Origin: Candidatus Saccharimonadota bacterium
GTDB lineage: Bacteria; Patescibacteriota; Gracilibacteria; Absconditabacterales; Absconditicoccaceae
Assembly: GCA_965231145.1 (NCBI GenBank)
Contig: OZ246420.1
Span: forward strand, 930,001 to 962,000
Length of the DNA stretch: 32,000 nucleotides
Direction of reading: 5' to 3'
Shown: positions 2,931 to 31,023 of the stretch, piece after piece
How the letters are laid out: each line of letters starts with the position of its first letter
How positions within the stretch are numbered: the first letter of the stretch is position 1
Notes under the pieces: model-generated
What the model was told of the DNA's origin: nothing
What the model saw: the letters and a program-made list of their open reading frames with translations, nothing else
Database searches by the model: none
Position numbers and translations under genes: made by a program

Positions 2931-3557
2931 TGGCATGCTATCGTACAAGGAGTAAGTATTTGACTGCTAATCTGTGTACTGGTTGGACCAGTTTTTTTCG
3001 CTATGCTGGGGATTGCCATGCGCTACTCAAGGCGCGCTGCGATACGGTTTGCAGCAGGCATGCTCCTCAGTGATATGGTGTATGGCGTTCTTGCATATGC
3101 AGGATTCAGTGCGTTTATCGTCGAATGACCACGAAAAACATGGATGTATATCTTCGGAGGCATCATCTTCATGATTATGTGAGGGCATATGATATACACA
3201 ACCCTTCGTCGCCGTCGTGAGGACCCTGCCGAAGTTCATCTGAGAACTCACCCTCATCGAAGTAACTTTCTCGGACAAGGGTTTATTACCAATACGCTCA
3301 ATCCCGGAGTTGTCTTTCTCTGGATCGGGATCGTAGGAACTTCAGTTCCACATTTTGATCATATTTCTACTACCATTATCTTTTTCCTAGCCATTTTTGT
3401 AACTATATTTGGAACTGACTTGCTCAAAATCATACTTGCCCACTCTATCAAACACCTTCTCAATAAAAAAAATCTCTATATTCTTCATCTTATCACAGGC
3501 GGCGTACTGATCATGCTTGGCTTGTTTACGATCGTCAAAACTCTTATCCACATATAA
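2928..3557 (+). CDS. LysE/RhtB-family amino-acid exporter (209 aa under table 25)
   Basis: ATG 2928 is in frame with track ORF 3189-3557 (offset 261). The two join through TGA at 2961, 3126 and 3180. The joined product starts MWHAIVQGVSIGLLICVLVGPVFFAMLG and contains FLGQGFITNTLNPGVVFLW, typical LysE-translocator motifs, with multiple hydrophobic helices. Stop is TAA 3555-3557. Confidence 0.8.
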
Positions 3558-4841: not shown

Positions 4842-4867
4842 AAAAAAATCCGCATATGCGGATTTTT
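4842..4867. terminator. Bidirectional intrinsic terminator between convergent genes
   Basis: A7, then ATCCGCATATGCGGAT (perfect palindrome, 4848-4863), then T5. It lies 4 nt from the TAA of giant gene 1 and about 70 nt after the methyltransferase stop. Confidence 0.75.
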
Positions 4868-4870
4868 CTA

Positions 4871-5425
4871 TTATCTTGATTCCTTTTCTAGTTTCTGCGC
4901 CAGTCTGTACAGTGTTAAGAACGGTACAAATCTCTGAGCTTTCACCATTGGTTCTTTTCTGTTGATCAATCATTCTGAATACAGCTTCTCCATATGATAC
5001 TCGTAGAATGGATGTTCTTCGCTTTCTACGTTCGTCTGCTCATACTTCTTGCCATACAGCATTCTTGAAAGCACAGTCATATACTCTCCTCTTGTTAATA
5101 TGTCATTTGGTCTGCTTGTATTCATCAGTCCGAGCTGACACGCTTGGATCATATATGCTTTTAGTCCATCTGGATCTTCTCCGCTGAATACGCATTGCTT
5201 ACTTGTATCTGGCAGCTTGCCTAATATGTTCTTCGCAAACTCTCCCATGATCTTTGCAAGCTGCGCTCTCGTGATCTGATCGTAATAACGTGCTTGTAGG
5301 AATGTAGGCATCGTCGTTGACCCAATAGCACGATTGAAACAGTATGATTGTTGCTCTTCTCCCTTCAATGCTCTACACTTTGCTAATGCGAGACGCAGAA
5401 TATCTGAAGTTAAATCAGGCAATCA
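4871..5425 (-). other. C-terminal wall-anchor region of giant protein 1: three SLH-like repeats (approximate bounds)
   Basis: The translation contains ...YYDQITRAQLAKIMGEFAKNILG..., FSGEDPDGLKAYMIQACQLGLMNTSRPNDILTRGEYMTVLSRMLYG and HPFYEYHMEKLYSE-G-LINRKEPMVKAQRFVPF. These fit the S-layer-homology pattern (aromatic/acidic start, GI/GL core, xTRxE/Q helix). The Gly of the third G-L/I core is a TGA (4970-4972). Confidence 0.5.
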
Positions 5426-8400
5426 TGCACTACTACATGTTCTGTCATAGTAGCTCAGCGAGTAATCTCCGTTTGGACAGACATCCTTCGTCAGATACAC
5501 TCATCCGCCTCCTCATGCCGATTGTACCGATGGAGTTGTGGCTAATGGCACTCCAAATATACTAAAGTTTGAGAAGTGCGGTGTATCACATGTCACCGTC
5601 TTATTGACCATATCCACCACACAATTATCTAACTCTGACCAGCTTGTTCCATCATGACTATATATCTTCAACGTGCTTTCATCTACTCAACTCACATCCT
5701 GATCACGATAACTTAATGTCAGCGTCAATCCCGTATCAAAGTTCGTCACACGCTCTACGTCTCCACTATATGCTTGTAAGTCATATAACGCTCCTACTTG
5801 AATAAGCGATGGATTGGGCAATCCAAGCGCTACCATAGCAGCTCCCGTATCCAACTGTTTTCCCTGGAAGATAAGAGTCGGTGCCGAAGCAACCACATCC
5901 GCAGGAATAATAAGTTCTAATATTGTTCCTATATCCGCAACCATAGAGAATATGGCTCATACAGGAACATCTATGATATCTTGTTCTTGAGTTACAATAT
6001 CAGAATTGTTGGGGCACCCTAGAGTAGTAAACGAATAATTAGTTCCTGTATAGCGGCTTCCCAACATATCTGTACCTATAAACCTATACGTATAGGTTGT
6101 ACATGCAAACAAACCAGAGATAGATCAACTATGTGTTGTGACACGAGGAGAAACATCCCCTTCCGCGCTCTGCAAGCCATATCATGTCGATATACTATAC
6201 TGAATTTGCGTAGAAGAAGGTATCGTTGTTTCCCAGTTAAAAAGCATAGATGTCATTCATGTAAGATGACTCATTCATGTAGCATATGCTGCAAGTATAT
6301 TTGGCATGACTGAAACTGAATCACCAGGTCCCTCTCCTTGTGCATTGACTGCTGAGACCGTGAACACATATGACACACCATTTGCCAATCACGTGAAGAT
6401 AATCGGGCTATTTGTTCCGGTCTTTACCAACAATCACGTATGCGATCTTATTGTATAGTAATCTATAAATAATCCTCCGTTATCTAATGGCGGCGCAAAC
6501 GTGAATATAGCCGCGCCACTTGCAGCTTTTGCTGCTATATCAAGAGGAGCTGTTACTGGTGCAGTTGTTGGCGTCGTTATGGTTAACGTCACAGCCCCAC
6601 TTGCCCCTTCTCACTGTATATTAAATGCAGAAATAAAGAACGTATGAGTTGTACCGTTGATAAATCCTGTCACCGTAATAGGAGAAGTTGATGATGTTGC
6701 TACGACCAATCAAGTAATCGATGTTATCCTATATCATAGTATAGCCGATCATCAACTGGTTAATGGTGGATCAAAATCAAACACCGCCTCACCATTTGTA
6801 CCTGCTGCTTCAATATTTTGTGGAACACCTGGAACTGTTACCGGAACGACACTATTTGAAGGAGCACTTAACACTCATGTAGTTACAGAAGTTTGCGCAA
6901 CAACAGTGAATGTATATGTCACACCATTCGTTAAGCCCTCAACAGTAATTGGACTATCTGTTCACGTCGCAATGATATTTCACGGAGACGATCTCACTAT
7001 GTAGTAGAGAATAGGAAATCCTCCATCGTCGGTCGATGCGTTAAATGATATGGTTGCCTGTTCATTTCCTGCCACAGCCGTCACACTCGTAGGTGCATTT
7101 GCTATAGTTGACGGAATAGTAGCATTTGAAGCACTACTTACTTCTCAGGTTCACACGCCATTTCTTGCCACTACGGTAAATGTATATGAAACTCCGTTCG
7201 TCAATCCTGGCACTGTAATCGGACTTCACAATCATGTCGCCGCAACATTTCATGGTGATGATGTCACAATATATTCAATGATGCCTGTTCCACCATCATA
7301 CGTCGCCCCACTAAATGCAATAGTTGCCTCTTGATTTCCTGCTATCGCCGTCACATTTGTCGGCGCATTTGGCAACGAAAGAGCGACGACTTCACTTGCT
7401 ATAAAGCTCTCGGTTCCTGTTCCAATAGCATTTACCGCAGCCACTGAAAATATATAAGGAGTACCGTTTCTCAGTCAGGTAATGGTAATCGGGCTATCGT
7501 CTCACGTTACCATGAAATCTCCAGTATTTGAGCCAACAACATAATACAAAATATTTGATCCTCCACTGTTAGTAGATCAACTAAATGATATGATTGCTTG
7601 TCAACTACTCACTTCTGCCACCACATTTGTTGGTTCACTTGGAACCGTTGCCACAAGCACGCTGTTTGAAGCCGCACTTTGCGCTCAAAATCACACACTA
7701 TTTCTTGCCATGACAGTGAATGTATAGAAGACACCGTTTGTCAATCAATTCATGATGATAGGCGCCCCACCAGATGCCACAATAAAACTACCTGGACTCG
7801 ACGTCACAAGGTATTCGATGATTCCTGTTCCTCCATCACTTACTGGCGGCGCAAACCAGATTGAAGCTGATTCATTACCTCACGTTGCAATGATATTTAT
7901 AGGCACCCCTGGTACTGATACTGGAATGATGCTATTTGAAACACTGCTTGCTGGTCATGTTCCGATCGCATTCACTGCTACCACAGTAAATGTATATCCG
8001 GTACCATTAGTCAATCAAGTAAGGCGTATAAAACTACCTCAACCAGTAAATGAAATATTCCCAGGATTTGATGTTGCTACATAGTACAAGATGTTTGATC
8101 CTCCGCTATTCGTTGAGCCACTGAATCTTACCGTTGCCTGACCATTTCCTCATGTTGCTGTTACATTTGTCGGCGCATTTGGCACCGTTGCAGGAATGAC
8201 GCTATTTGATACGCTACTTGCCGTTCATGTACCAATTGCATTAATAGCTCTTACCGTAAATGTATATGATGTTCCGTTTGTCAATCATGTGATTGTAATT
8301 GGACTTCATGTTCATGTGAAACTTATGTTTCACGGTGACGACGTCGCTATGTAATAAAGAATATCTGAGCCTCATGTATACGTTGAGCCACTGAATGAGA

Positions 8401-11400
8401 TAAGCGCCTGTCAACTACTAGCTGTCGCGAAAACATTTGCCGGCGCATTTGGCACCGTTGCAGGAATGACGCTATTTGATGCGCTACTTACGGTTCATGT
8501 TCACGCAGCATTGAGTGCAACTACAGAGAATGTATATGAGACGCCATTAGTAAGTCATGCGATGATAATTGGACTTCATGTTCATGTGAAACTTATGTTT
8601 CACGGTGACGATGTTGCTATGTAATAAAGAATATCTGAGCCTCATGTATACGTTGGAGCAACGAATGAAACGGTTGCCTGCCCGCTTGAGCCAGTTGCCA
8701 CTAAGCTCGTTGGTTCATTCGGTGTTCAGATTGGCGTAACATTGTTTGAAACATTACTCCACGTTCCTGTTCATGCTCCATTCACAGCTGCTGCCCTAAA
8801 AGAGTATGTCGTGCCGTTAATCAGTCATGTAATCGAGATCGGACTTCATGTTCAAGTCACCACAATACTTCATGGCGATCATGTGAGAATATAATAGAGA
8901 ATAGTTGATCATCATGTATACGTTGGTGCGATGAATGAAATGATTGCTTGTCCACTTGATCAGGTTGCGACTAGACTTGTCGGCGCATTTGCTACGGATA
9001 TTGGCGTCACACTACTTGATGGATTACTTACTGGTCCAGTTCCAATTGCATTGACCGCTGCAACTGTAAACGTATAAGACAAACCATTGATCAGACCTGA
9101 TAAAACTACCGGACTATCACTTCCCGTATATGAAATACCTCACGATGACGACGTAACAACATAATAAAGGATATCAGAACTTCCACTATATGTTGAACCA
9201 CTAAAGGACACCGTTACTTGTCAGCTGCTTGTCGCAGTTGCTACTACGTTCGTTGGTGCATTTGGAACACTCATAGGAGTAACGCTATTTGATCCACTGC
9301 TTGCCGATCCTGTTCGAACGCTATTTCTTGCGGTAACCGTAAAAGTATACGATACACCATTGGTCAATCACGTTACCGTGATTGGACTTCCAGTCCCGGT
9401 AAATGATATGTTTCCCGGATTTGATGTCGCGATATAATAGATAATTCATGTGCCACCATCATCGGCAGATCAACTAAATGAAACTGTTGCCTGACCACTT
9501 GCTGCCACCGCAGTTACATTGGTTGGCGCACTAGGAGGAAGAATTTCACTTGCAATTGGCTCCTCAAATGTGATAGACCAATTGTACAATGGTAATCCTG
9601 TACTATTTGACGCCAAAGAGACGCTCTCATCACTATCGCGGATGTTTCATCATACAGCGGTTGCAAGAGTCGAACTTCAACACGTTCCCAATCCAGCAGC
9701 CGGGCCCGTAGGACAAGACCATGCATAACGAAGCATCTGATGAGTTCCATTTGCAGCTCCACTGAGTTGGATCTGCACCTGAGTATTTCCACTCACCAAT
9801 GAAACCCCACTAATTGTGGTTGTACTACCGCCACTCTGCACAAATTCAAAACCATAGTTCGTACGTTGGGCAACATTTCATGTATCAATATTGAGTGTTC
9901 CTACTGGGATATTATAACTTACCGTAATCACGCTCCCTGACCTCACCACTGACGTAGGCATAAGAGGATTCCACGACTGTCCCTGAAATACTACTTTATT
10001 TATCACCTTTGCAAACATTTCTCCGACATGTTTGGATGACGTGCTTGTCAGACGAACTTTATCTCAAAGGTATGGATACTGATATTTTGGACCGACAAGG
10101 ATGATCTTCCCTGGGTTATTTTTATGTGCACTCAATTGTGCTACTGCTATACTACCACTCCACGTAGAATTTACCTGATTGATAAACATAGGCAATAAAA
10201 CTCCTGTGGTTCACATCAGGGCATTAATATCAAGTTGGTAATCTCTCTGCCACTCAACCAAAAATGCTTCATACCCGGCAGTAACAGATAGCGCATCACT
10301 TTCTCCATGAACAATAGTTACAGCAAGAGGTTTATAAATCCCTCCCGTTGCTTCTACTAAAGATTTTGAAATAGAGGCTTGCGCCATACCTTTTGCATAA
10401 GGAGCCGTTCCTTTCTTCAGTCAAGAATATGATGCATTTGCACCATGGAGTCCTACAACAATAGGACGGGCCAACACTCCTGTATACGCCCTAAGAGAGT
10501 TTGCGATACCTGCTGATGGCGTTTCCGCACCAGATTCTATGAGCAATCAAAGTTGATTTCACGTACCCTGTGGGTTTCCTCAACTAAGAGCGAGATTGTT
10601 ATAGGGCTGAAAAACACTAATCGCTGAGGAATTCAGTCCATAAGAGAGACTCTCTCCATTGGAAAGAATATGATAATATGTTTGGGTGTTTGTTGCTACC
10701 GCACTAGTGATAGATCCGCTTCCTACTCACTTACTATTTATAGCAGAAACCCTGAAATCATACGCTATATTATTAAAAAGTCACGTCACCGATCAGGTAA
10801 GTTCTGTACTTATACTATCTGAAAACACCGTCCAACTTGATCATGTAGAAAATTTATATTCTATCTGATAATCAAAAACCGGATCTATTGTAGAAAGTCA
10901 TGACCACGCCAAATGCACCACTCAACTTCCTACAGATGTTACGTAAAAATTTCTAGGAGCCCATGGTGTTGTTGCAGAAACACCTGGATTTCCTTCATAC
11001 ACCGATTGTATTTGCTGAGGAGTAAGAATTTGATCCCACAACTGCGCATCATCCATAAATCACGACCACATATGAGCTCCGCCGTTATATGTTCCTATAT
11101 ATGCTATCGTACTCGCGGCAGGAAGATTCGGCGCTATCCCACTTGCAACATATGCTCAGTTTTTATAAAGTGTATATTTCCTTGTTGTACCATCAAAAGT
11201 CATTGCAGCATGCACCCATGATCCGAGAGTGAGCGATACAGGATCGGTGGCCCAAGCAGTACCTCAAGCTGCTCCATGCCCTGCAATCAGCGAATTACTC
11301 ACAGAGAAAAAACTAGGATTATTCGCGTTTCCGTTAGTAATGATACTACGTGTAGCAAGAACAGTGCCTGTTGGAATAAACACCCATGCTGCCTTACTAA

Positions 11401-14400
11401 ATCCAGTAAGATTCATACTTGCTCACACACTTACAAAATTAGTCGTTCCATTGAAACGAGCTACATTACCACGAGTAGCATCATTGACTATAACCGTACC
11501 ACTATTTATACCATTATTTCGATTTGCAGAAGAGTCCAAGTAATTACCTTCGAAACGCAGAAAGAATTGAGGATGTGGCACATATACATCTATTGGAGTT
11601 ACATTTATTACACTACTTGCACTACCGGTTCCGACAGTATTGACTGCTGAAACCCTGAAATCATACACTATGTCATTGAACAATCATGTAACTACCACTC
11701 ATGTGTTTGTACTTATACCATCTGACAACACAGTCCATGTTGCTCATGTATTGAACTTATATTCAATTTGGTAATCTGTCACCGGCGAGGCAGCAACAGC
11801 CCCTGACCACGTAATTCTTACCTGCCCACTGACAGCTGCCACTCCTGTAAGGTTCGTTGGAGCAGAAGGTGCAGGAGGCGTTGCTCCATTTTCTCCTGAA
11901 TAAATAGCCGTTATCTGCGCAGGAGTAAGAGCGACATTCCACATTGCAGCATCATCAATATATCATGACCAAAAATTGAGGATTCAGAGGTAACTTCCGA
12001 TATACGTTCCTGTACTTGTTATAGGTCCATGAGGTGCTGTTCCACTTGCTGCATATACACCATTTTTATAGAGATTATATTTTCTGGTTGGATAATCAAA
12101 AGTGATAGCAACATGCACCCATGCTCCACTCGTAAATGTTGCAGAATCATTGACATACGTATTATTAGTATGTCCTCCAGCCAATGAATTATTTACCCAA
12201 AAGAAATTTGCATTAGCATTATTAATAATATTACGAGATGTAAGAGTTGTTCCTGTTGCGGCAAATACCCACGCCGCTTTCGTAAAATTTCCTCCTGACG
12301 TTAAAGGAGCTGGAACCATAACAAAATTGGTTGTTCCGTTGAAACGAGCGACCAATCAACGACCTGGATCATTTATCAATACCGTACCACCATTTACACC
12401 ATCATTTCCATTTGCAGAAGAGTCCATATAATTACCTTCAAAACGCAGGAAGAAGGCAGGTTCTGGAATTGGCGATGGCGCAAGAGTGATAGTACTACTT
12501 GCTGTTCCCGTTGCCACTGAATTAACTGCAGAGACTCTGAAATCATATGAAAGATTATTTATCAGTCACGTTATTGTTACTCATGTGTTTGTACTTATAC
12601 CATCTGACAACACAGTCCATGTTGCTCATGTATTGAACTTATATTCAATTTGGTAATCTGTCACTACAGGATCAGCAGTTACTCCTGACCAACTAAGAAC
12701 CGCCTGCCCACTTCCTCAAATGGCTCCTGTAAAATCTGTTGGAGCATTAGGAGGAGCTATATTTAATCAAAGATTACCTTCATATACTGCCTGCATCTGC
12801 CCCGATGATAACACACCTCTCCACTGCTGCATGTCATCCATATATCCCAGCCATGTACTTACACCAGGGTACCTTCATAGATTGGTACCTACCCCTCCAT
12901 CTGGCGAAGTACCAGCTACACCACTCGCTACATACGCACCATTTTTATACAGTGTATATTTTCTTGTTGCTGCATCAAACGTCTCTGCAACGTGCACCCG
13001 CTGTGCAACAGGAAAAGTAGTAGGGTCGCCAGCAGGTGAAGGTTGACCAGCATGTCCGGCGGTGAGATTTACTGTTCCATTTAGCCACAAAAACGTAGAT
13101 GCATCACCAAAAATCGCTCTAAAATAAAATGTCGGAGACAAAGATCAGAAACCCGTTGTGTATACCCAACCAGCCCTTGAAAACGATCATGTGCCTATTC
13201 CTGTACCAACACTAACAAACGATGCTGACTGAGCATTCTGCCCACCATCAAAAGAGCCGACTTGTCCACGAATCGGTTCTGTGACAACAGTCACTCCTCC
13301 ACTAACAGTACCGTGATTATTATTTGTTGTAGAGTCATTAAAGTTTCAGTTGAATCTCAGAAGAAACTGTGGCTCCGGGACTCATGCTTCAGCTGAAATA
13401 CCTGTACTTGCAAACCCGGCTCCGCTGGCATTGATTGCTGAAACTCTAAAATCGTACGACATGGGACTTATAAGCCCAGTGTTTATGACGACGCCCGTAG
13501 CTGTACTAACGCCATCATTATAAACCTGCCATGATGTTGACGAACCGGTAGTAAATTTATATTCAATCATATAGTCTGTTACGGCAGGCGTCGCTGAAAC
13601 AGGAGCCCAATTTACACGAACTCTTCCATTGGTGATAGAAACCGCTGACACATTTGTTGGTGCTGCAATAGCCCAATTTTGCGCCATCACTTCTTGTATT
13701 TCAGCTTCTGTCAAAACAGCATTCCACATCTGTACATCGTCTATCCACCCACTCCATGAAGAAGCATATGTGATAGCGCCACCTGAAACAGTATTAGTTG
13801 CAATAGCACCAACAACCTGAGCCAAACTAAAGGGATTTATTATACCGGTAGCACTGCTCACCAAGACACCACTCTGATATAGTTTATAATCCTTTGTGAC
13901 CGCATCAAACGTAACCGCCACATGCATCCATTGTCATGTAGGGAAAGCTCATGTTGAAAATACAGGATATATATTACTATTTGGTGGCGGGATATCACGA
14001 GGTCCAGCCTTGAGAGTATAAATACCGGCAGGTCCAGCGAAATTAGAATTGGCAACCGCAAACAAGTCGCTGCTATTTGCTGCATAATAAGAACCTGCAG
14101 CTAAAATGGAATAATTAGGAGCCGTAGGATTCGCTATCCCCAATTTCACCCAGGCCGCTTTTGTATAACTTCAAGAAAGCATGTTGGTAACTCTTACGAA
14201 CGCATCAGCATAGCCTGTAAGCCACAAAACCTTTCCACGAACAGAATCATTGAAAATGAGAGCTCCTGTTCCGGCTGTAGTGGTTTTATTATTTCCACCA
14301 CGATCAGTAAAATCCCCGTTGAAAGGCAGAAAATACGACGGTGCAGGAATAGCAGCATATACTTTTCCTGGTGCAATAGTTATAATTAACGCGAAAAATA

Positions 14401-14470
14401 CCTGGAAACAAAAAATCCCCAATGTTGTTCGTCTTGAAAACATAGATTTCGACTTACGGTTTAGATTCAT
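4871..14470 (-). CDS. Giant secreted cell-surface protein 1 (3,199 aa): signal peptide, 4x(LamG_3-Fn3), SGNH/SASA-like esterase, 12 tandem Fn3, stalk, 3 SLH-like repeats
   Basis: Ten track fragments lie in a single frame: 14171-14470, 13949-14149, 13382-13927, 12875-13141, 11984-12355, 11744-11944, 11423-11683, 7250-7444, 5687-5944 and 4970-5422. All offsets from 4871 are multiples of 3, and 14470-4871+1 = 9600. I hand-scanned every gap codon by codon and found only TGA, no in-frame TAA/TAG. Start is ATG 14468-14470 and stop is TAA 4871-4873. The N-terminus MNLNRKSKSMFSRRTTLGIFCFQVFFALIITIAPGKVYA/AIPAP is a Sec-type signal peptide. Domain evidence is in the sub-features below. Confidence 0.85.
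6305..9545 (-). repeat. Coding tandem array of 12 fibronectin type III domains, period about 270 bp (about 90 aa)
   Basis: Repeat starts fall near 9540, 9270, 9000, 8730, 8460, 8190, 7900, 7640, 7370, 7100, 6830 and 6560. Each unit reads like (V)PNAPTNVxAxxxSGQAxVSFxxPxxxGGSxIxYYxVTSSPGNISxTGTGSPITxTGLTNGxxYTFTVxAxNxxGTGxxS. A 13th, divergent purple-acid-phosphatase-type Fn3 follows at about 6010-6300 (WETT..IQYS..YG..THSGSISGL..TTYTYRF..FTT). Confidence 0.85.
9550..10690 (-). other. SGNH / sialate-O-acetylesterase (SASA, DUF303)-like carbohydrate esterase domain plus C-terminal beta-sandwich, embedded in giant protein 1 (approximate bounds)
   Basis: The translation reads YYHILSNGESLSYG (GDSL/GQSN-type nucleophile block), IVVGLHGANASYS, AVTIVHGESDA (QGESD-type block), LSAHKNNPGKIILVGP, DKVRLTSTSSKHVGEMFAKVI, then ...GGNIRDSDESVSLASNSTGLPLYNWSITFE. 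I recognise these motifs by eye only. No equivalent segment exists in giant protein 2. Confidence 0.45.
10700..14360 (-). repeat. Four LamG_3 (concanavalin-A-like lectin) domains alternating with four Fn3 domains, module period about 880-900 bp
   Basis: Each LamG reads FxGxxxFVxVxxxLxxxFTKAAWV...G/W-VHVAxTFDxxTxKYxLYKNGVxVASG...G-YIDDxxxWNxxLTxxQIxAxY. Each Fn3 reads APTNxxxxxxxGxVxxxWSxxxxxPVTDYQIEYKFxT..W.....STxT...ITGL....YDFRVSAVN. Segments 11697-11782 and 12579-12664 are an identical 86-nt stretch. Confidence 0.8.
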
Positions 14471-14508
14471 TCTCTATTCGATCACTAATAATGTATAATA
14501 CAAAATAA

Positions 14509-14536
14509 GTAATAAGAATCTGCTCTGCGATGTCAA
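14509..14536 (-). promoter_or_regulatory. Sigma-70-like promoter of giant gene 1
   Basis: The minus strand has TTGACA (14536-14531), a 16-nt spacer, then TATTAC (14514-14509), about 35 nt upstream of ATG 14470. The -10 context TTCTTATTACTT also appears upstream of giant gene 2. Confidence 0.4.
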
Positions 14537-14589
14537 TCAATTCATGGTAACATCAGTGTAATAAAGAGTCTTTTCTCGCAATTCATGAG

Positions 14590-14615
14590 AAAAACTCCCT
14601 CAACGGGAGTTTTTC
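14590..14615 (-). terminator. Intrinsic terminator of giant gene 2
   Basis: The minus strand reads AAAAACTCCC-gttga-GGGAGTTTTT. On the + strand this is ACTCCC 14594-14599 and GGGAGT 14605-14610. It begins 2 nt after the TAA at 14618-14620. Confidence 0.7.
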
Positions 14616-14617
14616 TG

Positions 14618-17600
14618 TTACCTACTTTCTTTCTCTAGTTTCTGTGCCAGTCTGTACAGAGTGAGGAATGGCACAAACCTTTGCGCTTTCACCATTGGTT
14701 CCTTTCTGTTGATCAATCATTCTGAATACAGCTTCTCCATATGATACTCATAGAATGGATGTTCTTCACTTTCCACATTCGTCTGCTCGTACGTTTTACC
14801 ATACAGCATTCTTGAAAGCACAGTCATATACTCTCCTCTTGTTAATATATCATTTGGTCTTGTCATATTCATCAGTCCTAACTGACATGCCTGGATCATA
14901 TATGCTGCTAGTCCGTCCGGATCTTCTCCTGTAAACGTACATTGCTTACTCTTATCTGGCAGCTTGCCCATAATATTTTTTGCAAACTCTCCCATGATCT
15001 TCGCAAGCTGCGCTCTCGTGATCTGATCGTAGTAACGTGCCTGCATGAATGTAGGCATCGTCGTTGACCCAATAGCACGATTGAAGCAGTATGATTGATG
15101 CTCTTCTCCATTTTGTGTTGTACATTTGTTCAACGCGAGGCGAAGTATACCATCTTCAAGATTCGGAAGACCTATGCTACTACATGTTCCATCATAATAA
15201 CTCAGTGAGTAATCTCCGTTTGGACACACATCCTTCGTCAGATACACTCATCCTCCTCCTCATGCAGATTGTACCGATGGAGTTGTGGCTAATGGCACTC
15301 CAAAAATCGTGAAGTTTGAAAAGTGCGTTGTGTCACATGTTACCGTCTTCGCTATCGTATCTACTGAACAATTATCCAGCTCTGACCAGCTTGTTCCATT
15401 GTGACTATAGATCTTCAACGTACTTTCATCTACTCCATCCACATCCTGATCGCGATAACTTAACGTCATCGTCAATCATGTATCAAAGTTCGTCACACGT
15501 ACTGTATCTCCACTATATGCTTGCAAGTCATACAATGCTCCTACTTGAATAAGCGATGGATTAGGCTTTCACAATTCATTTATTGCCGCATCTGCATCAA
15601 GTTGCTTTCCTTGGAAAACAACGAGTGGAATAGAACTCAGTACATCAGCAGAGATAATCATATCAAGCGTTGTTCCTATATCTGCTGTCATACTAAACAA
15701 ACCTCCTACCGGGACATCTATAATTTTTTGCTCCTGATTGACAATATTTGAGTTGTTTGCACAGCCTAATGTCGTAAAAGTTTGATTTGCTCATGTGTAG
15801 CGATTCCCGAACAGATCGGAGCCGACAAATCTATAGTTATAAGTTGTACAAGCAAATAAGTTCGCAATAAACCCACTATGAGATGTGACGCGAGTTGAAA
15901 CATCTCTCTCTATACTCTGAAGTCAATAGCCTGTTAATATACTATACTGTATCTGAGTCGACGCAGGGACTGTCGTAACCCAATTGAAGATCATATTCGT
16001 ATTTCACGTCATATTGGCCATTCAACTTGCGTACGCCGCTAGAATATTAGGCATAGCCTGTACTGATCCGCCTGGCCCTTCTCCCTGAGCATTCACTGCT
16101 GAGATAAAGAAGGTATAGAGCTCTCCATTGGTAATTCATGTAAGAGTTAAAGAGGTGGTTGCTCCTGTCTTAATAAGCATTCCTGTTATAGATCTTATTC
16201 TATAATAGTCAATAAGCAATCATCCATTATCTAATGGTGCTGCGAACGTAAAGACAACACCTCCACTTCCTACTCTCGCGACTATATCCAAAGGCTCTGA
16301 ACCTGGCGCCGTTGTTGGTGTGGTAATAGTCAACGTTACCGCGCCACTCGCGCCTTCTCACTGTGCATTTACTGCTGACACAAAGAATGTATGGGTTGTA
16401 CCATTGATAAATCATGTTACTGTCATTGGACTTGTTGATGATGAGGCGACAATCAATCATGTCATCGATCTGATTCTATATGACAATATCTCTGATCATC
16501 CACTCGTCAACGGCGCATCAAACTCAAATATCGCTTCTCCATTGGTCCCGGCTGCTTCAATGTTCTGTGGCACTCATGGCACCGTCACCGGCGTCACACT
16601 ATTTGATGGTGCACTTGAAACACCAGTTCACAATGCTGTTCTTGCCGTTACCACAAAGGCATACGACACTCAATTAGTAAGACCATCAATTAAAATAGGA
16701 CTTGATAGACCGGTAAATGCTATATCTCCCGACGTAGACGTAACTATATAATATAATATTGGCGAACCACCATCATCTGTTGAGCCAACGAATGAAACCA
16801 CGGCAGATTCATTTCAGGTAGCAGCCATAACACTTGTTGGAGCGTTTGGTATGGTAAATGGCGTCACACTATTTGAGCCAGTACTCAATGCGCCTGTTCA
16901 TGCTCAATTGACTGCGTAAACAGTGAACGTATACGACAATCCATTAGTCAATCAGGTGAGGATTATTGGGCTTCCCGTTCACGTAAATGATATATTTCCT
17001 GGAGACGAAGTAACAACATAGTAAAGTATATCTGAACCTCATGTATAGGTTGGCGCGACAAACGAGACTATTGCCTCCTGATTTCAGCCTACTGCAGAAA
17101 TACCCGTTGGCGCATTTGGTGTACTTATCGGCGTCACACTATTTGAGCCTGTACTCAATGTCCCTGTTCACGCTCCATTGATTGCGGCGATCCTAAAAAC
17201 ATAGGTTACACCATTGGTCAATCACGATACCGTGATGGGACTTCCAGTCCCGGTAAATATAATATTTCCTGTATTTGCCGTAAGCCTGTAATAGAGAATA
17301 TCTGATCAACCACTATACGTTGAGCCACTAAACGACACAACTGCTTGTCAGCTACTTACGACTGCAACAATATTTGTCGGCGCATTTGGCAATCCTGCCG
17401 GCACTATAGCATTTGACGGCCCACCAATTGAACCAAATCACACCGCATTTCTTGCCACGACAGTAAATGTATACGATACTCCATTTGTCAGACCGCTCAT
17501 GATAATAGAGGTTCCCGAACCAGCTTGCATAAAACCTCATGGCGACGACGCAGCTATATATTCTATAATACCCGTTCCCCCATTATTTGCAGGAGGATCA

Positions 17601-20600
17601 AAAGAAATTATTGCATAACCACTTCAAGGCGCAGCCGTAATATTTTGCGTGACATGTGGTACAGAGACGGGAACAACATTGTTTGAAGCTGCACTTCGCG
17701 CACCTGTTCATGCTCCATTGACCGCTGCAACACTGAAAGTATATCCACTACCATTTGTGAGTCAGTTTACGGTAATTGGACTATCAAATCATGTAAAGAT
17801 AATACTTCCTGGAGAACCAGTGAGCACATAGTAAAGTATGTCTGAACCTCATGTATAAGTTGGCGCAACAAATGAGACAAGAGCCTGCCCACTACTTACT
17901 GTCACCGCTATACTCGTCGGCGCATTTGGAGCTCAAACAGGAACCACGCTATTGGAAACACTACTTCGTTCTCATGTTCATGCGCCATTTACCGCCACTA
18001 TTCTAAATGTATATGTCGTTCCATTGGTCAATCATGTCACCGTTATCGGACTTCCATTTCACGTTAGCACTATTCCTCATGGCGCTCATGTCAGAACATA
18101 GTATGAAATATTTGAGCCTCACGTATACGTTGGTGCAGCAAACGAAATGATTGCTTGTCAGCTACTTCACGTCCCCAACAAACTTGTCGGTGCATTTGGT
18201 GTACTTATTGGTGTCACACTATTTGAGCCGCTACTTCGTTCTCATGTTCATGCGCCGTTTACTGCCGCTACTCTAAATGTATATGTCACTCCATTCGTCA
18301 GTCATGTAATTGTCATCGGATTACCATTTCAGGTCACCAGAATATTTCCTGGTGATCACGAAAACACATAATACATGATTGATGATCATCCATTATATAC
18401 TGGCGCAGTGAATGACAATATTGCTTGCCCACTCGATCCTGTTGCTACCACACTTGTTGGCGCATTTGCGATACCCATTGGAACAACGCTATTTGATCAA
18501 GTACTCGGCGTTCCGACACCGATACCATTGACTGCTGTTACCGTGAAAACATACGAAATCCCGTTAGTCAGTCATGTTATCGTGATAGGACTTCATGTTC
18601 ATGTAAATGAAATATCACCTGTGGATGACGTTACTACATAGTAGAGAATTGTCGAATTTCCGCTGTCCGTAGAACCACTAAACGAAACTATTGCTTGTCC
18701 ACTACTCGCCGTCGCCACGATATTAGTAGGAGCATTTGGAACAGTTGGGATAATCACTCATAATGCAGCTCCTTCATATAAAGCCTGGATTTGCAATGGC
18801 GTTAACACACTATCCCACATCTCTGCGTCATCTATGTATCAGCTCCAGTTAGAAGTATTGTATGCACCAACTGTCGTTCACGTACTACTCAATGGCAACT
18901 GACTAGCTATATTACCCGTCACAAACACTCCATTTTTATAAATTCTATGCATACGAGTAGCCGAGTCAAAAGTCGATGCTATATGCACCCACTGTCACAG
19001 CGGAAATGTAGCAGGATCTGTTGCGGATATTGTGATAAATCAACCCACAAAATTTCCAACAACTAATTTTCAGACAGTGGTTGCAAGATAGTCGGACAAA
19101 CTTCCGCCAAAACCGGCATTGGATATAATACCACGCAAACTAGTCATATTTGTACCTACAGGAGCATAGACCCATGCAGCCTTCGTAAAATTTGATGGTA
19201 AAGGAACAGGAACAGCTACATAACTTGTCGTTCCATTGAAACGTCACACCTGCCCACGAACTTCGTCTGTCACTATCGTCGCTCAATTGTTGATACCATG
19301 CTTATTATGACTTGTTGAATCTTGATAGTCTCACTCAAAACGCAACAGAAATAGTGGTTCAGGAACACCTATTGGATTAGTCATTCACGTAACACTGCTG
19401 GCTGCACCTGTACCTATAATATTTACGGCTGACACCCTAAAATCATAAGATAAATAGTTTGTCAGTCCCGTAATCGACACAGACAATCATGTGCTTATAC
19501 CATCAGAGAGTGTCGTCCATGTCGATCATGTGCTTATTTTATATTCTATCTGGTAATCCGTCGCTGATGGAATTGCTGCTGCTCCTGACCATGATAATAT
19601 TACCAATCAACTAGTCGCCGACGTTGTTGTCAAATTTAAAGGAGCGCTGGGGATCCCGTTTACTTGAACACCGACATTTCCTTGATATAAAGCCTGGATT
19701 TGCGATGGTGTTAACACACTATCCCACATCTCTGCGTCATCTATGTATCAGCTCCAGTTAGAACTTGCACCGTACGCACCAACTATCGTTCACGTACTAC
19801 TCAATGGCAACTGACTAGCTATATTACCCGTCACAAACACTCCATTTTTATAAATTCTATGCATACGAGTAGCCGAATCAAAGGTTGATGCTATATGCAC
19901 CCACTGTCACAGCGGAAATGTAGCAGGATCCGCTGCGGATATTCTATTTGCTCAACCTGCAGTAAAATTTCCGGCAGTTAGTTTTCAAACAAGAACGGAA
20001 AGATAGTCAGATAACATTACATTGGATATAATACCATGGAAACTACTCACATTTGTACCTACCGGAGCATAGACCCATGCAGCCTTCGTAAAATTTGATG
20101 GTAGCGGAGCAGCAACACCTACATAGCTTGTCGTTCCATTGAAACGCCCCACTTGTCCACGGTCTCCGTCTGCCACTATCGTCGCTCAGTTGTTGGTAGT
20201 AGCCTTTCATATTACATCAGAGTAGTCTCACTCAAAACGCAACAGAAAGCTCGGCATAGGGACAAAAGTAGTTCTTCAGGTAGCTACACTACTTACGCTA
20301 CCCGTCCCACTTGCATTAATCGCAGACACCCTAAAATCATATAAAAGGTCATTTATCAATCATGTGATAAATCATGTTGTATTTGCAGAAACACCATCAG
20401 AGTGTGTTGTCCATATTGATCATGTACTTATTTTATATTCTAAAGAATAGTCTGTGACTGGGAGTGTTGCAGAAACACCTGACCATGACAACAATACTAC
20501 TCCAGAAAACTGAGAAAGTGCAGTCACATTGGTTGGCGCACTTGGAAGAGAGACATCGACTCATAAATTTCCTTCATAAACCGCCAATATCTGAGTTTCA

Positions 20601-22243
20601 TTGAGAACACTATTCCACGAGGCAACATTATCCATATATCCTCACCGTGAAAAATTACCGGCATAGTATCCGATTCTCATACCGGTATTTGCAGCGGGAA
20701 GTCATGGAGATACTCAGCTTGCAACATACACACCATTTTTATAGAGAGTATATTTCTGAGAAACAGGATCAAAAGTCTCAGCAACATGTACCCACTCTCC
20801 TGTTACAAAGTTATCAGGATCTGAGGCATATGTTACTCCTACACCAGCTGGCACGTGTCATACCGATAATTTTCATGCATTCACATACATAAAATTTGAT
20901 GACGATCATCCATACGCATCGTGTCAAAATATGAAACGGAAATTGGGAGAGATACCTGTAGCAACCATAACCCAACCAGCCTTCGTAAAACCTGTTGTTC
21001 ATAAGGGAGCTGGAACAGTAATTGATACATCTGCTCCTGTAAAGTATGCAACTAGTCAACGAGTTCCATCTGTTACGATACTCACACCAGAGCTTATACC
21101 ATGAAAACCGCGAGATGAAGAATCGTTATAATTTCCTTCAAAAGGCAAGATAAATTGTGGCTCGGGAACCGCAGCCCATGCTGCTGTACCCGAAACGATA
21201 CTACTTGCAGAACTAGTTCCGCTTGCGTTGATTGCAGATACTCTAAAATCATATGTCATACCCGTAATAAGAGACGTCACACTTCATGTATATCTTGTGT
21301 TTACTCCATCTGAAAAAACATTCCAGCCTCATCCTGTAGTAAATTTATATTCAATTTGATAATCTGTCACACTTGGCGCTACCGAAACAGGCGTCCAACG
21401 AAGATTTACTCTTCCATTTGTAGTCGTGGTTACTCTTAAACCTAGAGGAGCACTTGGCAAGGAAGGCGTAATACCATCTCCATTATTTTGATTCATCACC
21501 TCGACTATCTGCAATGCAGTCAGTGCACCAGACCAGAGTTGTACATCATCCATTTGTCAGCTCCAGTTATGGGCGATGTTATTTTCATCAGCAGCAAAAG
21601 CTCCAATTACCTGTTTTGTACTGCTTGGGGCTGTCGTTGTTCCCGTAGATATACCAACCAAGACACCACTCTGGTAGAGCGAGTATTGTTTTGTCGCAGC
21701 ATCATAAGTTACCGCCACATGCGTCCATTGTCATGTGGTGAAGGTACCAGTACTTTGAACACCATTTGCTGTAGTATTATTGAGTGGTCATGCTTTCAAC
21801 GTCCAGTTAGAAACTCCTCAAAGCAGATTAGTCGCGACCCAAAAAAAGTCACTATTTCATCATAAAGTGGTTCCATTGGACAAAATACCATAGTTTTGAG
21901 TATAGTTAGCAACTCCTAATTTAACCCATGCAGATTTTGTATAACTTGGCGGAAGAGAGTTGGTCACACTTATATAAGAGATATTTGTCCCTCCAATAAG
22001 ATTTAATACTTTTCCACGTACCGGATCTGTCACAATAGACGCACCCGTACCCACCACAACAGGCTTATCATTACCCGAGTGATCGATAAAATCACCATTA
22101 AACGGAAAAAGATACATCGGTGTAGGCACCGCTGCATACACTTTTGCAGGCATAATAGTTATACCCAATGCAAAAAATATATAAAAACAAAAAATAGCCA
22201 ATATAGTCCAGCCCGAAAATGTGCGTGGGGGCTTATGATTCAT
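14618..22243 (-). CDS. Giant secreted cell-surface protein 2 (2,541 aa), tandem paralog of protein 1 without the esterase domain
   Basis: Track fragments 21860-22264, 21329-21553, 21056-21280, 19985-20176, 15260-15475 and 14717-15247 lie in one frame (offsets from 14618 are multiples of 3). I hand-scanned 15421-19990, 20161-21060, 21241-21330 and 21541-21860 and found only TGA, no in-frame TAA/TAG. ATG 22241-22243 (MNHKPPRTFSGWTILAIFCFYIFFALGITIMPAKVYA/AVPTP, aligning with the protein 1 signal peptide) is preferred over the TTG at 22264. Stop is TAA 14618-14620. Confidence 0.85.
16050..18765 (-). repeat. Coding tandem array of about 10 Fn3 domains, period about 270 bp
   Basis: The + strand landmark (c)ttgt(c/t)gg(c/t)gcatttgg recurs near 16840, 17110, 17380, 17920, 18190, 18460 and 18730. 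Minus-frame translation gives the same PNAPTN...SGQA..SF...YY..TSS.G.IS.TGTGSPIT.TGLTNG..Y.F.V.A.N..G.G units as in gene 1. Confidence 0.8.
18766..22130 (-). repeat. Four LamG_3 domains with three interleaved Fn3 domains (module period about 900-910 bp)
   Basis: Motifs match gene 1: FTKAAWVYAPVG, QWVHIASTFDSATRMHRIYKNGVFV, G-YIDDAEMWDSVLTP.QIQALY, TDYQIEYKISTG..W, YDFRVSAVN. Modules at about 18781-19330 and about 19691-20240 are near-identical at the nucleotide level. Confidence 0.8.
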
Positions 22244-22405: not shown

Positions 22406-22738
22406 TTATGCATTCATATCATCACCATGTGAGTGACCATGATCATCAAATCTTCTTTCACCAAATGGCTTTCTTTCTCTTTCTTCGGCCATAGAAACGC
22501 TGATAAGTCTTTCTGAAGGAGCAATAGTCTTTTCATTTGACTCAGCAATTGCTTTCTGCGCATCTTCTTCAGTGACATATTCTACGAAACCGAAGCCTCT
22601 CTTTCTCCCGAACTTATCCAAAGGAAGTTTAACTGAGGCAACCTCACCAAATTGGGAAAAATATTGATGTACTTGTTCTTCGTTAAGATTCCAGTCGAGG
22701 TTTCTTACGAACAGTTTTTTTGTCTCAAGTTGTGTCAT
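22406..22738 (-). CDS. RRM-type (RNP-1/RNP-2) RNA-binding protein, 110 aa
   Basis: RNP-2 is KLFVRNL and RNP-1 is RGFGFVEY, at canonical spacing. The C-terminal tail is acidic and His-rich. No in-frame TGA. Stop is TAA 22406-22408. Confidence 0.85.
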   Translation of the reverse strand: MTQLETKKLFVRNLDWNLNEEQVHQYFSQFGEVASVKLPLDKFGRKRGFGFVEYVTEEDAQKAIAESNEKTIAPSERLISVSMAEERERKPFGERRFDDHGHSHGDDMNA

Positions 22739-25312: not shown

Positions 25313-25347
25313 ACTATAGGTAATTAATATTATCTATAGTTTTTTTG
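25313..25347 (+). terminator. Intrinsic terminator of asnS
   Basis: ACTATAG (25313-25319), a 14-nt AT loop, CTATAGT (25334-25340), then T7-8. Confidence 0.6.
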
Positions 25348-25423
25348 TATCTCATTTTGAGATCTATGAAAAAACTTATATGCTGGGCAAAATTTTTACT
25401 TGCTCTACAAAAACTTATGCAAC

Positions 25424-25514
25424 CAATCCCCCTTCCTCCACACTTCGGTGGAGTTCATCCCCCTTTGGAAATGAAAAAGGGGGAAGCCCCGCAGAAGTGC
25501 GGGGAGAGGGATTG
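25424..25514 (+). other. GC-rich 91-nt four-way-junction (cloverleaf-like) element at the 5' side of the DUF559 gene
   Basis: Closing stem CAATCCC (25424-30) pairs with GGGATTG (25508-14). Three hairpins follow: CTCCAC-acttcg-GTGGAG (25436-53), TCCCCCTTT-9nt-AAAGGGGGA (25458-84) and CCCCGCA-gaag-TGCGGGG (25487-504). That is 29 bp in 91 nt within AT-rich surroundings. Under table 25 it lies in the same open frame as the DUF559 ORF. Confidence 0.35.
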
Positions 25515-25557
25515 AGCATATAGCAATGATGAGGCTCGTGTTGAGCCGAAATGTCGC

Positions 25558-25935
25558 ATGCTCTACGATAGAGACCTAGTAAACTATAGAGGTCTTACGC
25601 GAAAGTGATGACACATTCCTTACAGTAAAAGACTCAAGCAACGAGGCAGAGATATGAGAAACAACTTGACAAAGGCAGAATCCATTTTGCGAAAAAGATA
25701 TCTTAAACGACTAAAAGTTCCTGTCCTCAGACAAAAGCCGCTAGATCATTATATTGCAGATTTTTATATACCTTCGGCGAAACTAGTGATTGAAGTAGAT
25801 GGACTGATTCACTCTACGCAAAAAGCCATAGCATACGATAAGAAAAGAACAGAGTTACTTATGCAATATGGCATAAGAGTCATAAGATTTACCAATGAAC
25901 AAATATGTGACTGAAAGAAGTGAGTGAAATTATAA
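25558..25935 (+). CDS. DUF559 (Vsr-like endonuclease fold) domain protein, about 125 aa; start uncertain
   Basis: The track ORF 25654-25914 extends both ways under table 25. Upstream it passes TGA-TGA at 25606-25611, giving ...RKGGHIPYSKRLKQRGRDMRNNLTKAESIL, which matches the family N-terminal pattern IPYN.xLxxxARxLRxNxTxxE. Downstream it passes TGA 25912 and 25921 to TAA 25933-25935. The core reads RQKPLDHYIADFYIPSAKLVIEVDG...RFTNEQI. In-frame ATGs are at 25558 (preferred), 25417 and 25366. Confidence 0.7.
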
Positions 25936-31014: not shown

Positions 31015-31023
31015 TGGTAGAAC

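What the first reader, a model, noticed from the sequence alone, without database searches (positions are those of the whole stretch)
4871..14470. A 9.6-kb, 3,199-codon surface-protein gene is hidden behind roughly a hundred UGA codons
Under the standard code this region looks like scattered ORFs of 60-180 aa on both strands. Under code 25 it is a single open frame with no TAA/TAG across 3,199 codons, which cannot arise by chance in AT-rich DNA. The architecture is: Sec signal peptide, four LamG_3 lectin domains alternating with Fn3, an esterase-like domain, 12 tandem Fn3, a beta-rich stalk ending in HFSNFSIFG, a GGGG linker, a Cys motif (CPNGDYSLSYYDRTC) and three SLH-like repeats. This is a fibre with a wall-anchored base and lectin/enzyme domains at the tip. 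In CPR lineages with episymbiotic or predatory lifestyles it is the obvious candidate for the host-attachment or S-layer apparatus.
Basis: partly seen in the sequence, partly recalled or inferred. Interest (0 to 1): 0.85.

Follow-up and report, generated by a model that had tools for sequence, protein, structure and literature searches.

The report
Giant wall-anchored surface fibre gene
This is a real 9.6-kb gene, readable only when UGA is translated as glycine, that encodes a giant wall-anchored surface fibre with sugar-binding tips in a tiny, probably predatory SR1-group bacterium; such fibres are already known from this group, so it is a good example and not a new kind of thing.

Summary
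On the minus strand, ATG 14470 to TAA 4873..4871 is one 3,199-codon frame with 105 in-frame TGA and no TAA/TAG (chance about 1e-63). TGA means glycine (code 25): it aligns to Gly 70 times and to Trp never between paralogs, and to Gly in 35 of 36 AsnRS orthologs. dN/dS of 0.16 shows purifying selection. The source is an Absconditabacterales (SR1) bacterium.

SASA and SLH fall below Pfam thresholds in this protein. Both were recovered through homologs and structure models of close relatives.

New details: the esterase's near-invariant catalytic His is Arg, so it is probably a binding module and not an enzyme. A 2,541-aa tandem paralog lacks that domain. The stalk–Gly–Cys motif–SLH base recurs under different tips in related lineages.

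The protein is most likely an adhesion fibril. Giant Fn3/ConA/SLH surface proteins are already reported for this family, so it is a new member of a known kind and interest is moderate to low.

The parts
4871..14470 (-). Gene P1: 3,199 codons plus a TAA stop, with 105 in-frame UGA(Gly) codons
14351..14470 (-). Signal peptide (aa 1-40). It has a basic n-region, a 17-residue hydrophobic core and a VYA|A cleavage-type site, and it is conserved in the paralog.
   Evidence: Read from the sequence. No signal-peptide predictor was available.
10691..14350 (-). Four Laminin_G_3 (ConA-like) domains, each followed by an Fn3 of the 'DYxIEYK...YDFRVSA' type. LamG at aa 41-262, 364-563, 668-857 and 964-1158; Fn3 at aa 269-361, 574-665, 868-959 and 1169-1260.
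   Evidence: Pfam PF13385 x4 at E 5e-53 and PF00041; domain boundaries
9548..10687 (-). SASA/SGNH-family carbohydrate-esterase fold plus a C-terminal beta-sandwich (aa 1262-1641). Ser1274 and HGESD (aa 1388-1392) are kept, but block I reads GES instead of GQS and block V reads DKVR instead of DxxH.
10052..10054 (-). CGT codon for Arg1473, at the position of the family's near-invariant catalytic His (His in 27 of 27 aligned homologs)
6302..9535 (-). Twelve tandem Fn3 domains (aa 1646-2723), each about 90 aa. Two neighbouring units (8163-8668) are still 85% identical at the DNA level.
6026..6286 (-). Thirteenth Fn3-like domain, of the Pur_ac_phosph_N type (aa 2729-2815)
   Evidence: Pfam PF16656 at E 1e-13
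5552..6022 (-). Beta-rich 'stalk' domain (aa 2817-2973) ending in HFSNFSIFG. Its fold was not determined.
   Evidence: Weak TIGR04213 PGF-pre-PGF hit at E 0.004, below cutoff. Homologous stalks occur in L002, L035 and P0206.
5480..5551 (-). Linker containing GGGGG (aa 2986-2990, codons TGA GGA GGC GGA TGA)
   Evidence: the equivalent linker is disordered in the AF2 model of relative P0063
5435..5479 (-). Cys junction motif CPNGDYSLSYYDRTC (aa 2998-3012); family consensus [DE]xCPxGDxSxSYYDGxC
   Evidence: It recurs in the same position in L002, L021, P0078, P0091 and P0206, and in 15 of 53 representatives with a C-terminal cassette. No Pfam or NCBIfam model matches it.
4874..5434 (-). Divergent triple SLH wall-anchor module (aa 3013-3199), with TRAQ (aa 3067-3070), TRGE (aa 3126-3129) and KAQR (aa 3177-3180) at the TRAE-motif positions
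4844..4867 (-). Hairpin plus T-run (AAAAATCCGCATATGCGGATTTTTTT) directly after the stop codon; a likely intrinsic terminator
14618..22243 (-). Tandem paralog P2: 2,541 aa with 99 UGA. It has the same signal peptide, 4 LamG, 3 interspersed plus 10 tandem Fn3, PAP_N, stalk, Gly5, Cys motif and SLH, but no esterase domain. It has its own terminator-like hairpin at about 14590-14614.

Best explanation
P1 is a Sec-exported, cell-wall-anchored giant fibril of an Absconditabacterales (SR1, code 25) bacterium. The C-terminal triple SLH module fixes it non-covalently to a wall polymer. The stalk and 13 Fn3 domains form a long spacer, several tens of nanometres if extended. The N-terminal third presents four ConA-like lectin domains plus a tailspike-type SASA esterase fold at the distal end. 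That esterase fold has probably lost catalysis and acts as a further glycan-binding module. The most likely job is binding surface polysaccharides of another cell, meaning host or prey recognition and attachment.

Shown: the gene is real and under purifying selection, UGA encodes Gly, and the domain identities and their order are established.

Inferred: export, extension of the fibril, wall binding, loss of catalysis, and the adhesion role.
For: Gene reality:
- The frame is 3,199 codons with 105 TGA, with a chance probability of about 1e-63.
- dN/dS is 0.16 against P2 over 2,498 codons and 0.15-0.19 against an ortholog from another sample, L002.
- TGA encodes Gly.

Anchor:
- A 45%-identical module (L001) passes the Pfam SLH threshold, and an Absconditabacterales protease (L026) with the same module scores 31.6 bits.
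- 23 of 33 family members hit PF00395.
- The AF2 model of relative P0063 (pLDDT 90-96 over the module) matches only triple-SLH structures (SpaA, Sap) at TM 0.63-0.70. The next hit has E 0.37.
- Arg-containing TRAQ and TRGE motifs occupy the TRAE positions, whose Arg binds pyruvylated wall polymer in SpaA and Sap (PMC6081394).
- The standard-code relative in L035 has PG_binding_1 in the same terminal position.

Tip:
- Laminin_G_3 x4 at E 5e-53.
- The esterase family is linked to PF03629. The model of a 57%-identical homolog (pLDDT 94) matches the Pan3 phage tailspike (E 2e-21), XAC1771, SIAE, CE20 and NanS. It also matches phage tail proteins in BFVD at E about 1e-30.
- His to Arg and Gln to Glu substitutions sit at catalytic-motif positions.

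Context:
- Giant Fn3/ConA/integrin surface proteins and 8-10 SLH proteins per genome are described for Absconditicoccaceae predators and are proposed to mediate host contact (PMC8080830; PMC13059738).
Against: - There is no expression, localisation or binding data.
- No signal-peptide predictor was run.
- The window's own SLH score is sub-threshold (16.2 bits).
- Whether this genome makes a pyruvylated wall polymer (csaB) could not be checked.
- The lifestyle of this particular organism is unknown.
- The His to Arg change is a single CGT/CAT difference in a single assembly and could be a sequencing error or a tolerated variant.
- The fold of the stalk is undetermined.
Confidence: 0.65

Rival explanations
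1. P1 is a surface-displayed active carbohydrate O-acetylesterase. The fibril holds a working enzyme away from the cell so that it can de-acetylate prey or host polysaccharide (capsule, O-acetylated peptidoglycan) during feeding or penetration, as phage tailspike esterases do.
For: The SASA/SGNH fold matches tailspike esterases best. The Ser nucleophile, the HGESD block and Asp1470 are retained. LamG domains could serve as substrate-targeting modules.
Against: The block V His is Arg here, while 27 of 27 aligned homologs have His. The block I Gln is Glu, while 27 of 27 have Gln. The paralog P2 lacks the domain altogether yet keeps the rest of the architecture under selection.
Confidence: 0.15
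2. P1 is an S-layer or self-cohesion component. It would form or decorate the organism's own surface layer, or glue sister cells together (Vampirococcus forms stacks of cells), and would not recognise a host.
For: SLH anchors are typical of S-layer proteins. Two tandem paralogs share a near-identical anchor. Stacked cells and a fibrous surface are described in PMC8080830.
Against: No lattice-forming domain was detected. Long Fn3 arrays with lectin tips are typical of adhesins and not of 2-D lattice subunits. The same SLH cassette sits on proteases and many unrelated proteins, so it marks wall attachment and not S-layer identity.
Confidence: 0.15
3. The frame is not a functional gene. It would be a decaying pseudogene, or an assembly or reading-frame artefact that happens to lack TAA/TAG.
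For: The only support is the absence of expression data.
Against: The chance probability is about 1e-63. dN/dS is 0.15-0.19 in three comparisons. All domains are intact. The gene has its own terminator. An ortholog exists in an independent sample.
Confidence: 0.01

Closest known systems
Giant surface proteins of Absconditicoccaceae predators (Vampirococcus lugosii, PMC8080830; Strigamonas methylophilicida, PMC13059738; Absconditicoccus praedator as cited there)
   Same: Same lineage and same genetic code. They are proteins of more than 1,500 aa with a signal peptide and fibronectin III, concanavalin-A-type and other adhesion domains, and these genomes carry several SLH-domain proteins. They are proposed to mediate host recognition and attachment.
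   Different: Those reports list domains per protein. They do not describe this particular architecture (4×LamG/Fn3, a dead SASA esterase, 12 Fn3, stalk, Cys motif, SLH). No ortholog was found next to AsnRS in the closest genomes. No direct sequence comparison with those published proteins was possible here.
SLH-anchored surface proteins of Firmicutes (Paenibacillus alvei SpaA and SlhA, Bacillus anthracis Sap; PDB 6CWC, 3PYW, 6BT4)
   Same: They share the triple-SLH three-pronged-spindle fold. Arg-containing TRAE-type motifs are present in units 1 and 2. The module is used as a non-covalent wall anchor at a protein terminus.
   Different: The sequences are very divergent: 12-17% identity, and the window's own Pfam score is below threshold. 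The GIIxG motif is degenerate. The ligand is unknown. The cassette is preceded by a Cys motif not described for Firmicutes.
Phage tailspike and tail-fibre SGNH/SASA esterases (cyanopodophage Pan3 tailspike 9VYH; Vi-phage tailspikes) and cellular SASA esterases (XAC1771 7KMM, SIAE 8F9P, NanS 3PT5)
   Same: They share the catalytic-domain fold plus the C-terminal beta-sandwich, with sequence-level similarity to 9VYH at E 1e-4. The domain sits at the distal end of a fibre that contacts another cell's polysaccharide.
   Different: The catalytic His is replaced by Arg and the block I Gln by Glu. The domain is embedded in a cellular SLH-anchored protein and not in a trimeric virion spike.
L035 protein of a standard-code Patescibacteria MAG (JAGORJ010000011.1, 1,705-aa open stretch)
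   Same: It has Fn3 of the same 'YDFRV' type, a LamG-like domain, the same esterase (39% identity, with DxxH intact), a PAP_N Fn3 and a stalk ending HFSTFAVFG (34% identity).
   Different: It uses the standard code, has no Cys motif, and ends in PG_binding_1 instead of SLH. It has far fewer Fn3 domains.

Membership tests
Genetic code 25 (UGA = Gly; SR1/Gracilibacteria) | In-frame UGA occurs at positions where homologs have Gly and not Trp | tested here: met
   Gly 70 times and Trp 0 times between the paralogs. AsnRS residue 40 is Gly in 35 of 36 standard-code orthologs. All flanking genes carry in-frame TGA.
Genetic code 25 (UGA = Gly; SR1/Gracilibacteria) | The organism belongs to the SR1/Gracilibacteria lineage | tested here: met
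   The best AsnRS matches (79-89% identity) are Patescibacteria or Ca. Absconditabacterales MAGs.
Genetic code 25 (UGA = Gly; SR1/Gracilibacteria) | A tRNA-Gly with a UCA anticodon, and loss of RF2 | not testable with these tools
   The window contains no tRNA gene, and the rest of the genome is not available.
SLH domain (PF00395) wall anchor | Sequence match to the SLH profile above the gathering threshold | tested here: inconclusive
   The window's own module scores 16.2 bits against a cutoff of 20.8. Its 45%-identical homolog scores 21.5 bits, L026 scores 31.6 bits, and 23 of 33 family members hit at E of 0.01 or better.
SLH domain (PF00395) wall anchor | Three tandem units folding into the three-pronged spindle | tested here: met
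   The AF2 model of homolog P0063 matches only SpaA and Sap SLH trimers, at TM 0.63-0.70. The model is of a relative and not of the window protein.
SLH domain (PF00395) wall anchor | A TRAE-type motif with the conserved Arg | tested here: met
   TRAQ (aa 3067-3070) and TRGE (aa 3126-3129) are present. Unit 3 has KAQR. Motif roles are taken from PMC6081394.
SLH domain (PF00395) wall anchor | Binding to a pyruvylated secondary cell-wall polymer, with csaB in the genome | not testable with these tools
   This needs the whole genome and a binding assay.
SASA / SGNH carbohydrate esterase (PF03629) | Homology to the family and the same fold | tested here: met
   There is no direct Pfam hit. Homologs at 39% identity carry PF03629. 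The model of a 57%-identical homolog matches XAC1771, SIAE, CE20 and NanS.
SASA / SGNH carbohydrate esterase (PF03629) | The block I nucleophile Ser in the GQS motif | tested here: met
   Ser1274 is conserved, although the motif reads GES instead of GQS.
SASA / SGNH carbohydrate esterase (PF03629) | The block V DxxH catalytic His | tested here: not met
   The sequence is DKVR, with Arg1473 (CGT) where 27 of 27 aligned homologs have His. The domain is therefore filed as having an esterase fold and not as an esterase.
Fibronectin type III (PF00041) | Profile match above threshold, in a tandem array | tested here: met
   E 5e-114 with 15 matched stretches. 17 units were delimited.
Laminin_G_3 / ConA-like lectin (PF13385) | Profile match above threshold | tested here: met
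   E 5e-53 with 4 matched stretches. Sugar binding itself was not tested.
Giant host-attachment proteins of Absconditicoccaceae | Longer than 1,500 aa, with a signal peptide or TM segment plus adhesion-type domains, in this lineage | tested here: met
   the criteria are those used in PMC13059738
Giant host-attachment proteins of Absconditicoccaceae | A demonstrated role in host contact | not testable with these tools
   This is not demonstrated experimentally in the cited papers either. It is an inference there too.

The most novel reading that the evidence does not exclude
The C-terminal 'stalk – Gly run – [DE]xCPxGDxSxSYYDGxC – triple SLH' unit may be an undescribed, lineage-wide anchoring cassette of UGA-recoded Patescibacteria. 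Different tips would be swapped onto it. Here the tip includes a phage-tailspike-type esterase converted into a lectin, so these predators might read the same prey-surface glycans that phages do. The near-identical anchors of the two tandem paralogs would then reflect concerted evolution of the base while the tips diversify.
Probability: 0.2. Interest if true: 0.55.

Novelty: new member of a known kind. Interest (0 to 1): 0.3.

Why it matters
This is a clean, fully parsed example of how code-25 genomes conceal their largest and most informative surface proteins. One large public protein collection holds this genome's giant genes only as code-11 fragments. It holds relatives as code-4 translations with Trp in place of Gly.

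The parse gives concrete handles for experiments on how SR1-group epibionts attach to other cells:
- a defined SLH anchor
- a recurrent Cys junction motif
- lectin-type tips
- an apparently dead tailspike-like esterase

It does not reveal a new kind of system.

Tried and rejected
- **Code 4 (UGA=Trp).** Rejected: TGA never aligns with Trp in the paralog comparison, and the AsnRS TGA aligns with Gly.
- **Direct Pfam and NCBIfam scans of the mid domain, stalk and C-terminus.** There were no significant hits. Sequence searches of the PDB with the C-terminus alone and as a profile also found nothing.
- **Modelling the window's own sequences.** The structure tool refuses code-25 translations, and DNA references that contain TGA are rejected. 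Close homologs were modelled instead.
- **"The C-terminal module is nearly unique."** The first search gave 3 hits. This was overturned by the exhaustive search, which found 1,143 representative clusters at E of 1e-30 or better.
- **Scan of species-representative genomes with C-terminal peptide patterns.** It found nothing, probably because the Gly in the pattern is TGA-encoded or the source genome is not a representative.
- **Conserved synteny of a giant gene next to AsnRS.** Not found. The closest relative, L003, has none there. The giant ORFs in L010, L022 and L043 share no detectable similarity with P1.
- **Promoter scan.** The number of sigma-70-like sites is not above the shuffled expectation, so no promoter is claimed.
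Full report
**1. Observation**

ATG is at 14470, TAA is at 4873..4871, and there are 3,199 sense codons with 105 in-frame TGA and no TAA/TAG. On the plus strand the same coordinates contain 38 TAA/TAG. Under table 11 only two ORFs of 150 aa or more fall in the region.

With TAA/TAG expected at 0.044 per codon, the chance of such a run is about 1e-63. The two alternative frames of the same strand hold 137 and 134 TAA/TAG. The longest run in 200 shuffles of the window was 329 codons.

**2. Genetic code and organism**

A second giant frame lies immediately upstream on the same strand (22243..14618; 2,541 aa; 99 TGA). Aligning the two, TGA sits opposite Gly 70 times and opposite Trp never. The commonest partner codon is GGA.

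In the neighbouring class II aaRS gene (AsnRS type), the single TGA aligns with Gly in 35 of 36 standard-code orthologs. All flanking genes carry in-frame TGA: RecG, LysE, an RlmL-like methyltransferase, HhH-GPD and GH3. The code is therefore 25 and not 4.

The closest species-representative genomes by AsnRS (79-89% identity) are Patescibacteria or Candidatus Absconditabacterales MAGs. The source genome itself is a 1.1-Mb NCBI contig that I could not name.

**3. The gene is real**

dN/dS between the paralogs is 0.16 over 2,498 aligned codons, with synonymous sites near saturation. Against the C-terminal 711 aa of an ortholog from an independent sample (L002, 15 TGA) it is 0.15-0.19.

Each paralog ends in its own hairpin plus T-run.

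**4. Architecture**

Pfam gives fn3 at E 5e-114 (15 stretches), Laminin_G_3 at E 5e-53 (4 stretches) and Pur_ac_phosph_N. A repeat HMM built from the protein itself delimits the domains:

| Element | Residues (aa) |
|---|---|
| Signal peptide | 1-40 |
| LamG domains | 41-262, 364-563, 668-857, 964-1158 |
| Fn3 after each LamG | 269-361, 574-665, 868-959, 1169-1260 |
| Mid domain (esterase fold) | 1262-1641 |
| Twelve tandem Fn3 | 1646-2723 |
| PAP_N-type Fn3 | 2729-2815 |
| Stalk, ending HFSNFSIFG | 2817-2973 |
| Linker with GGGGG (two of the five codons are TGA) | GGGGG at 2986-2990 |
| CPNGDYSLSYYDRTC | 2998-3012 |
| C-terminal module | 3013-3199 |

**5. The mid domain**

Pfam and NCBIfam find nothing. 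A sequence search of the PDB gives the cyanopodophage Pan3 tailspike at E 1e-4.

A homolog search returns 60 proteins. The closest (about 50% identity) are roughly 520-aa proteins, several with a T9SS sorting tail. Those at about 39% identity carry PF03629 (SASA).

A model of a 57%-identical homolog (pLDDT 94) matches the Pan3 tailspike (E 2e-21), the XAC1771 acetylesterase, sialic acid esterase, CE20 and NanS. In the viral library it matches phage tail proteins at E about 1e-30, with TM 0.79-0.85.

In the alignment the window keeps the Ser nucleophile, the HGESD block and the block V Asp. It deviates from only 5 of 54 near-invariant columns, and two of those are catalytic-motif positions:
- GQS becomes GES.
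- DxxH becomes DKVR (Arg1473, CGT).

I therefore file it as an esterase fold that is probably catalytically inactive and retained for binding. A single-base sequencing error cannot be excluded. The paralog P2 lacks this domain.

**6. The C-terminal module**

Its own SLH score is sub-threshold (16.2 bits against 20.8), but several other lines link it to SLH:
- A 45%-identical homolog in the same position (L001) passes at 21.5 bits.
- An Absconditabacterales trypsin-like protease with the module at its N-terminus (L026) scores 31.6 bits.
- A profile search retrieves 44 proteins, many with PF00395, one of them named as an SLH protein of Absconditabacterales.
- 23 of 33 members hit SLH.
- A model of relative P0063 (module pLDDT 90-96) matches only SpaA and Sap SLH trimers at TM 0.63-0.70, after which E jumps to 0.37.

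TRAQ and TRGE occupy the TRAE positions, whose Arg binds pyruvylated wall polymer in SpaA and Sap (PMC6081394).

An exhaustive search shows the cassette is common: 1,143 representative clusters at E of 1e-30 or better, at either terminus of proteins up to about 2,500 aa. This corrects my earlier impression of rarity.

**7. A modular base**

A standard-code Patescibacteria protein (L035) has the same esterase (39% identity, DxxH intact), PAP_N and stalk (HFSTFAVFG), but it ends in PG_binding_1.

A 2,516-aa relative (P0206, mistranslated with Trp for UGA) has a different N-terminal array on the same base: stalk, linker, CATRDCSISYYDGIC, then SLH.

The Cys motif precedes the SLH cassette in 15 of 53 representatives with a C-terminal cassette and in 0 of 68 with an N-terminal cassette. 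It has no Pfam or NCBIfam model and no relevant literature hit.

In the window, paralog nucleotide identity rises from about 56% at the 5' end to about 90% over the last 420 nt and collapses at the stop codon. This is consistent with concerted evolution of the anchor or with very strong constraint on it.

**8. Mechanism**

The order of parts (export signal, lectin-type tip, long Fn3 spacer, stalk, flexible linker, SLH) and the interchangeable wall-binding end support a wall-anchored fibril that presents glycan-binding domains distally.

Adhesion to another cell's surface polysaccharide is the most likely role. That is how similar proteins of Vampirococcus and Strigamonas are interpreted (PMC8080830; PMC13059738). 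Nothing here demonstrates it.

The rivals are an active displayed esterase, an S-layer or self-cohesion role, and a non-functional frame, which is effectively excluded.

**9. Novelty**

Giant Fn3/ConA-type surface proteins and multiple SLH proteins per genome are already described for this family.

This gene is a well-resolved new member. The added details are the probably dead tailspike-type esterase, the tandem paralog, and the recurrent stalk–Gly–Cys motif–SLH base. Interest is moderate to low (0.3).

Noticed in passing
window 14618-22243 (minus strand): A second giant code-25 gene (P2, 2,541 aa, 99 TGA) lies in tandem with P1. It is about 60% identical to P1 and lacks the esterase domain and three Fn3 units. 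Identity to P1 climbs to about 90% at the nucleotide level over the last 420 nt and ends at the stop codon, which suggests gene conversion of the anchor or extreme constraint on it.
   Followed up: partly
window 5435-5479 and the equivalent site in P2; L002; L021 1-1746; L043 1433-9478; P0078, P0091, P0206: The Cys motif [DE]xCPxGDxSxSYYDGxC recurs between a Gly-rich linker and the SLH cassette. It is found in 15 of 53 proteins with a C-terminal cassette and in 0 of 68 with an N-terminal one. It has no Pfam or NCBIfam model and no relevant literature hit. In L043 it occurs without a following SLH module.
   Followed up: partly
L035 4409-9523 (JAGORJ010000011.1): A standard-code Patescibacteria relative has the same Fn3 type, an esterase with an intact DxxH, a PAP_N Fn3 and the stalk, but it carries a C-terminal PG_binding_1 domain instead of SLH. 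It also lies next to AsnRS, in a different orientation.
   Followed up: partly
P0061, P0063, P0206 (public protein collection): The collection holds this genome's giant genes only as code-11 fragments; P0061 is a 176-aa piece of P2. It holds relatives as code-4 translations with Trp wherever UGA(Gly) occurs. That inflates Trp content and weakens profile matches, which is a general annotation hazard for this lineage.
   Followed up: partly
L043 1433-9478; L010 1448-7273; L022 10276-15108: Other Absconditabacterales loci near AsnRS carry unrelated giant ORFs of 1,600-2,700 aa with 74-90 in-frame TGA. By eye, the L043 protein has repeated DUF11-like units and a sortase-like C-terminus (LLLYTCTP). 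No HMM test was run on these.
   Followed up: no
window 8163-8668: A 270-bp tandem DNA repeat (1.9 copies, 85% identity) corresponds to two adjacent Fn3 units. It indicates a relatively recent unit duplication within the Fn3 array.
   Followed up: no
window 22406-22738 (minus strand), 25345-25935 and 31021-32000: The flanking genes include an RRM_1 RNA-binding protein, a DUF559 (endonuclease-like) protein preceded by an odd Pro/Gly-rich leader, and a GH3-family N-terminal domain protein that runs off the end of the window.
   Followed up: no
window 14471-14617: The 147-nt spacer between the P2 stop and the P1 start contains the P2 terminator-like hairpin and then an AT-rich stretch with TTGACA. 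The two giant genes therefore look like separate transcription units. The promoter scan was not above the shuffled expectation.
   Followed up: partly
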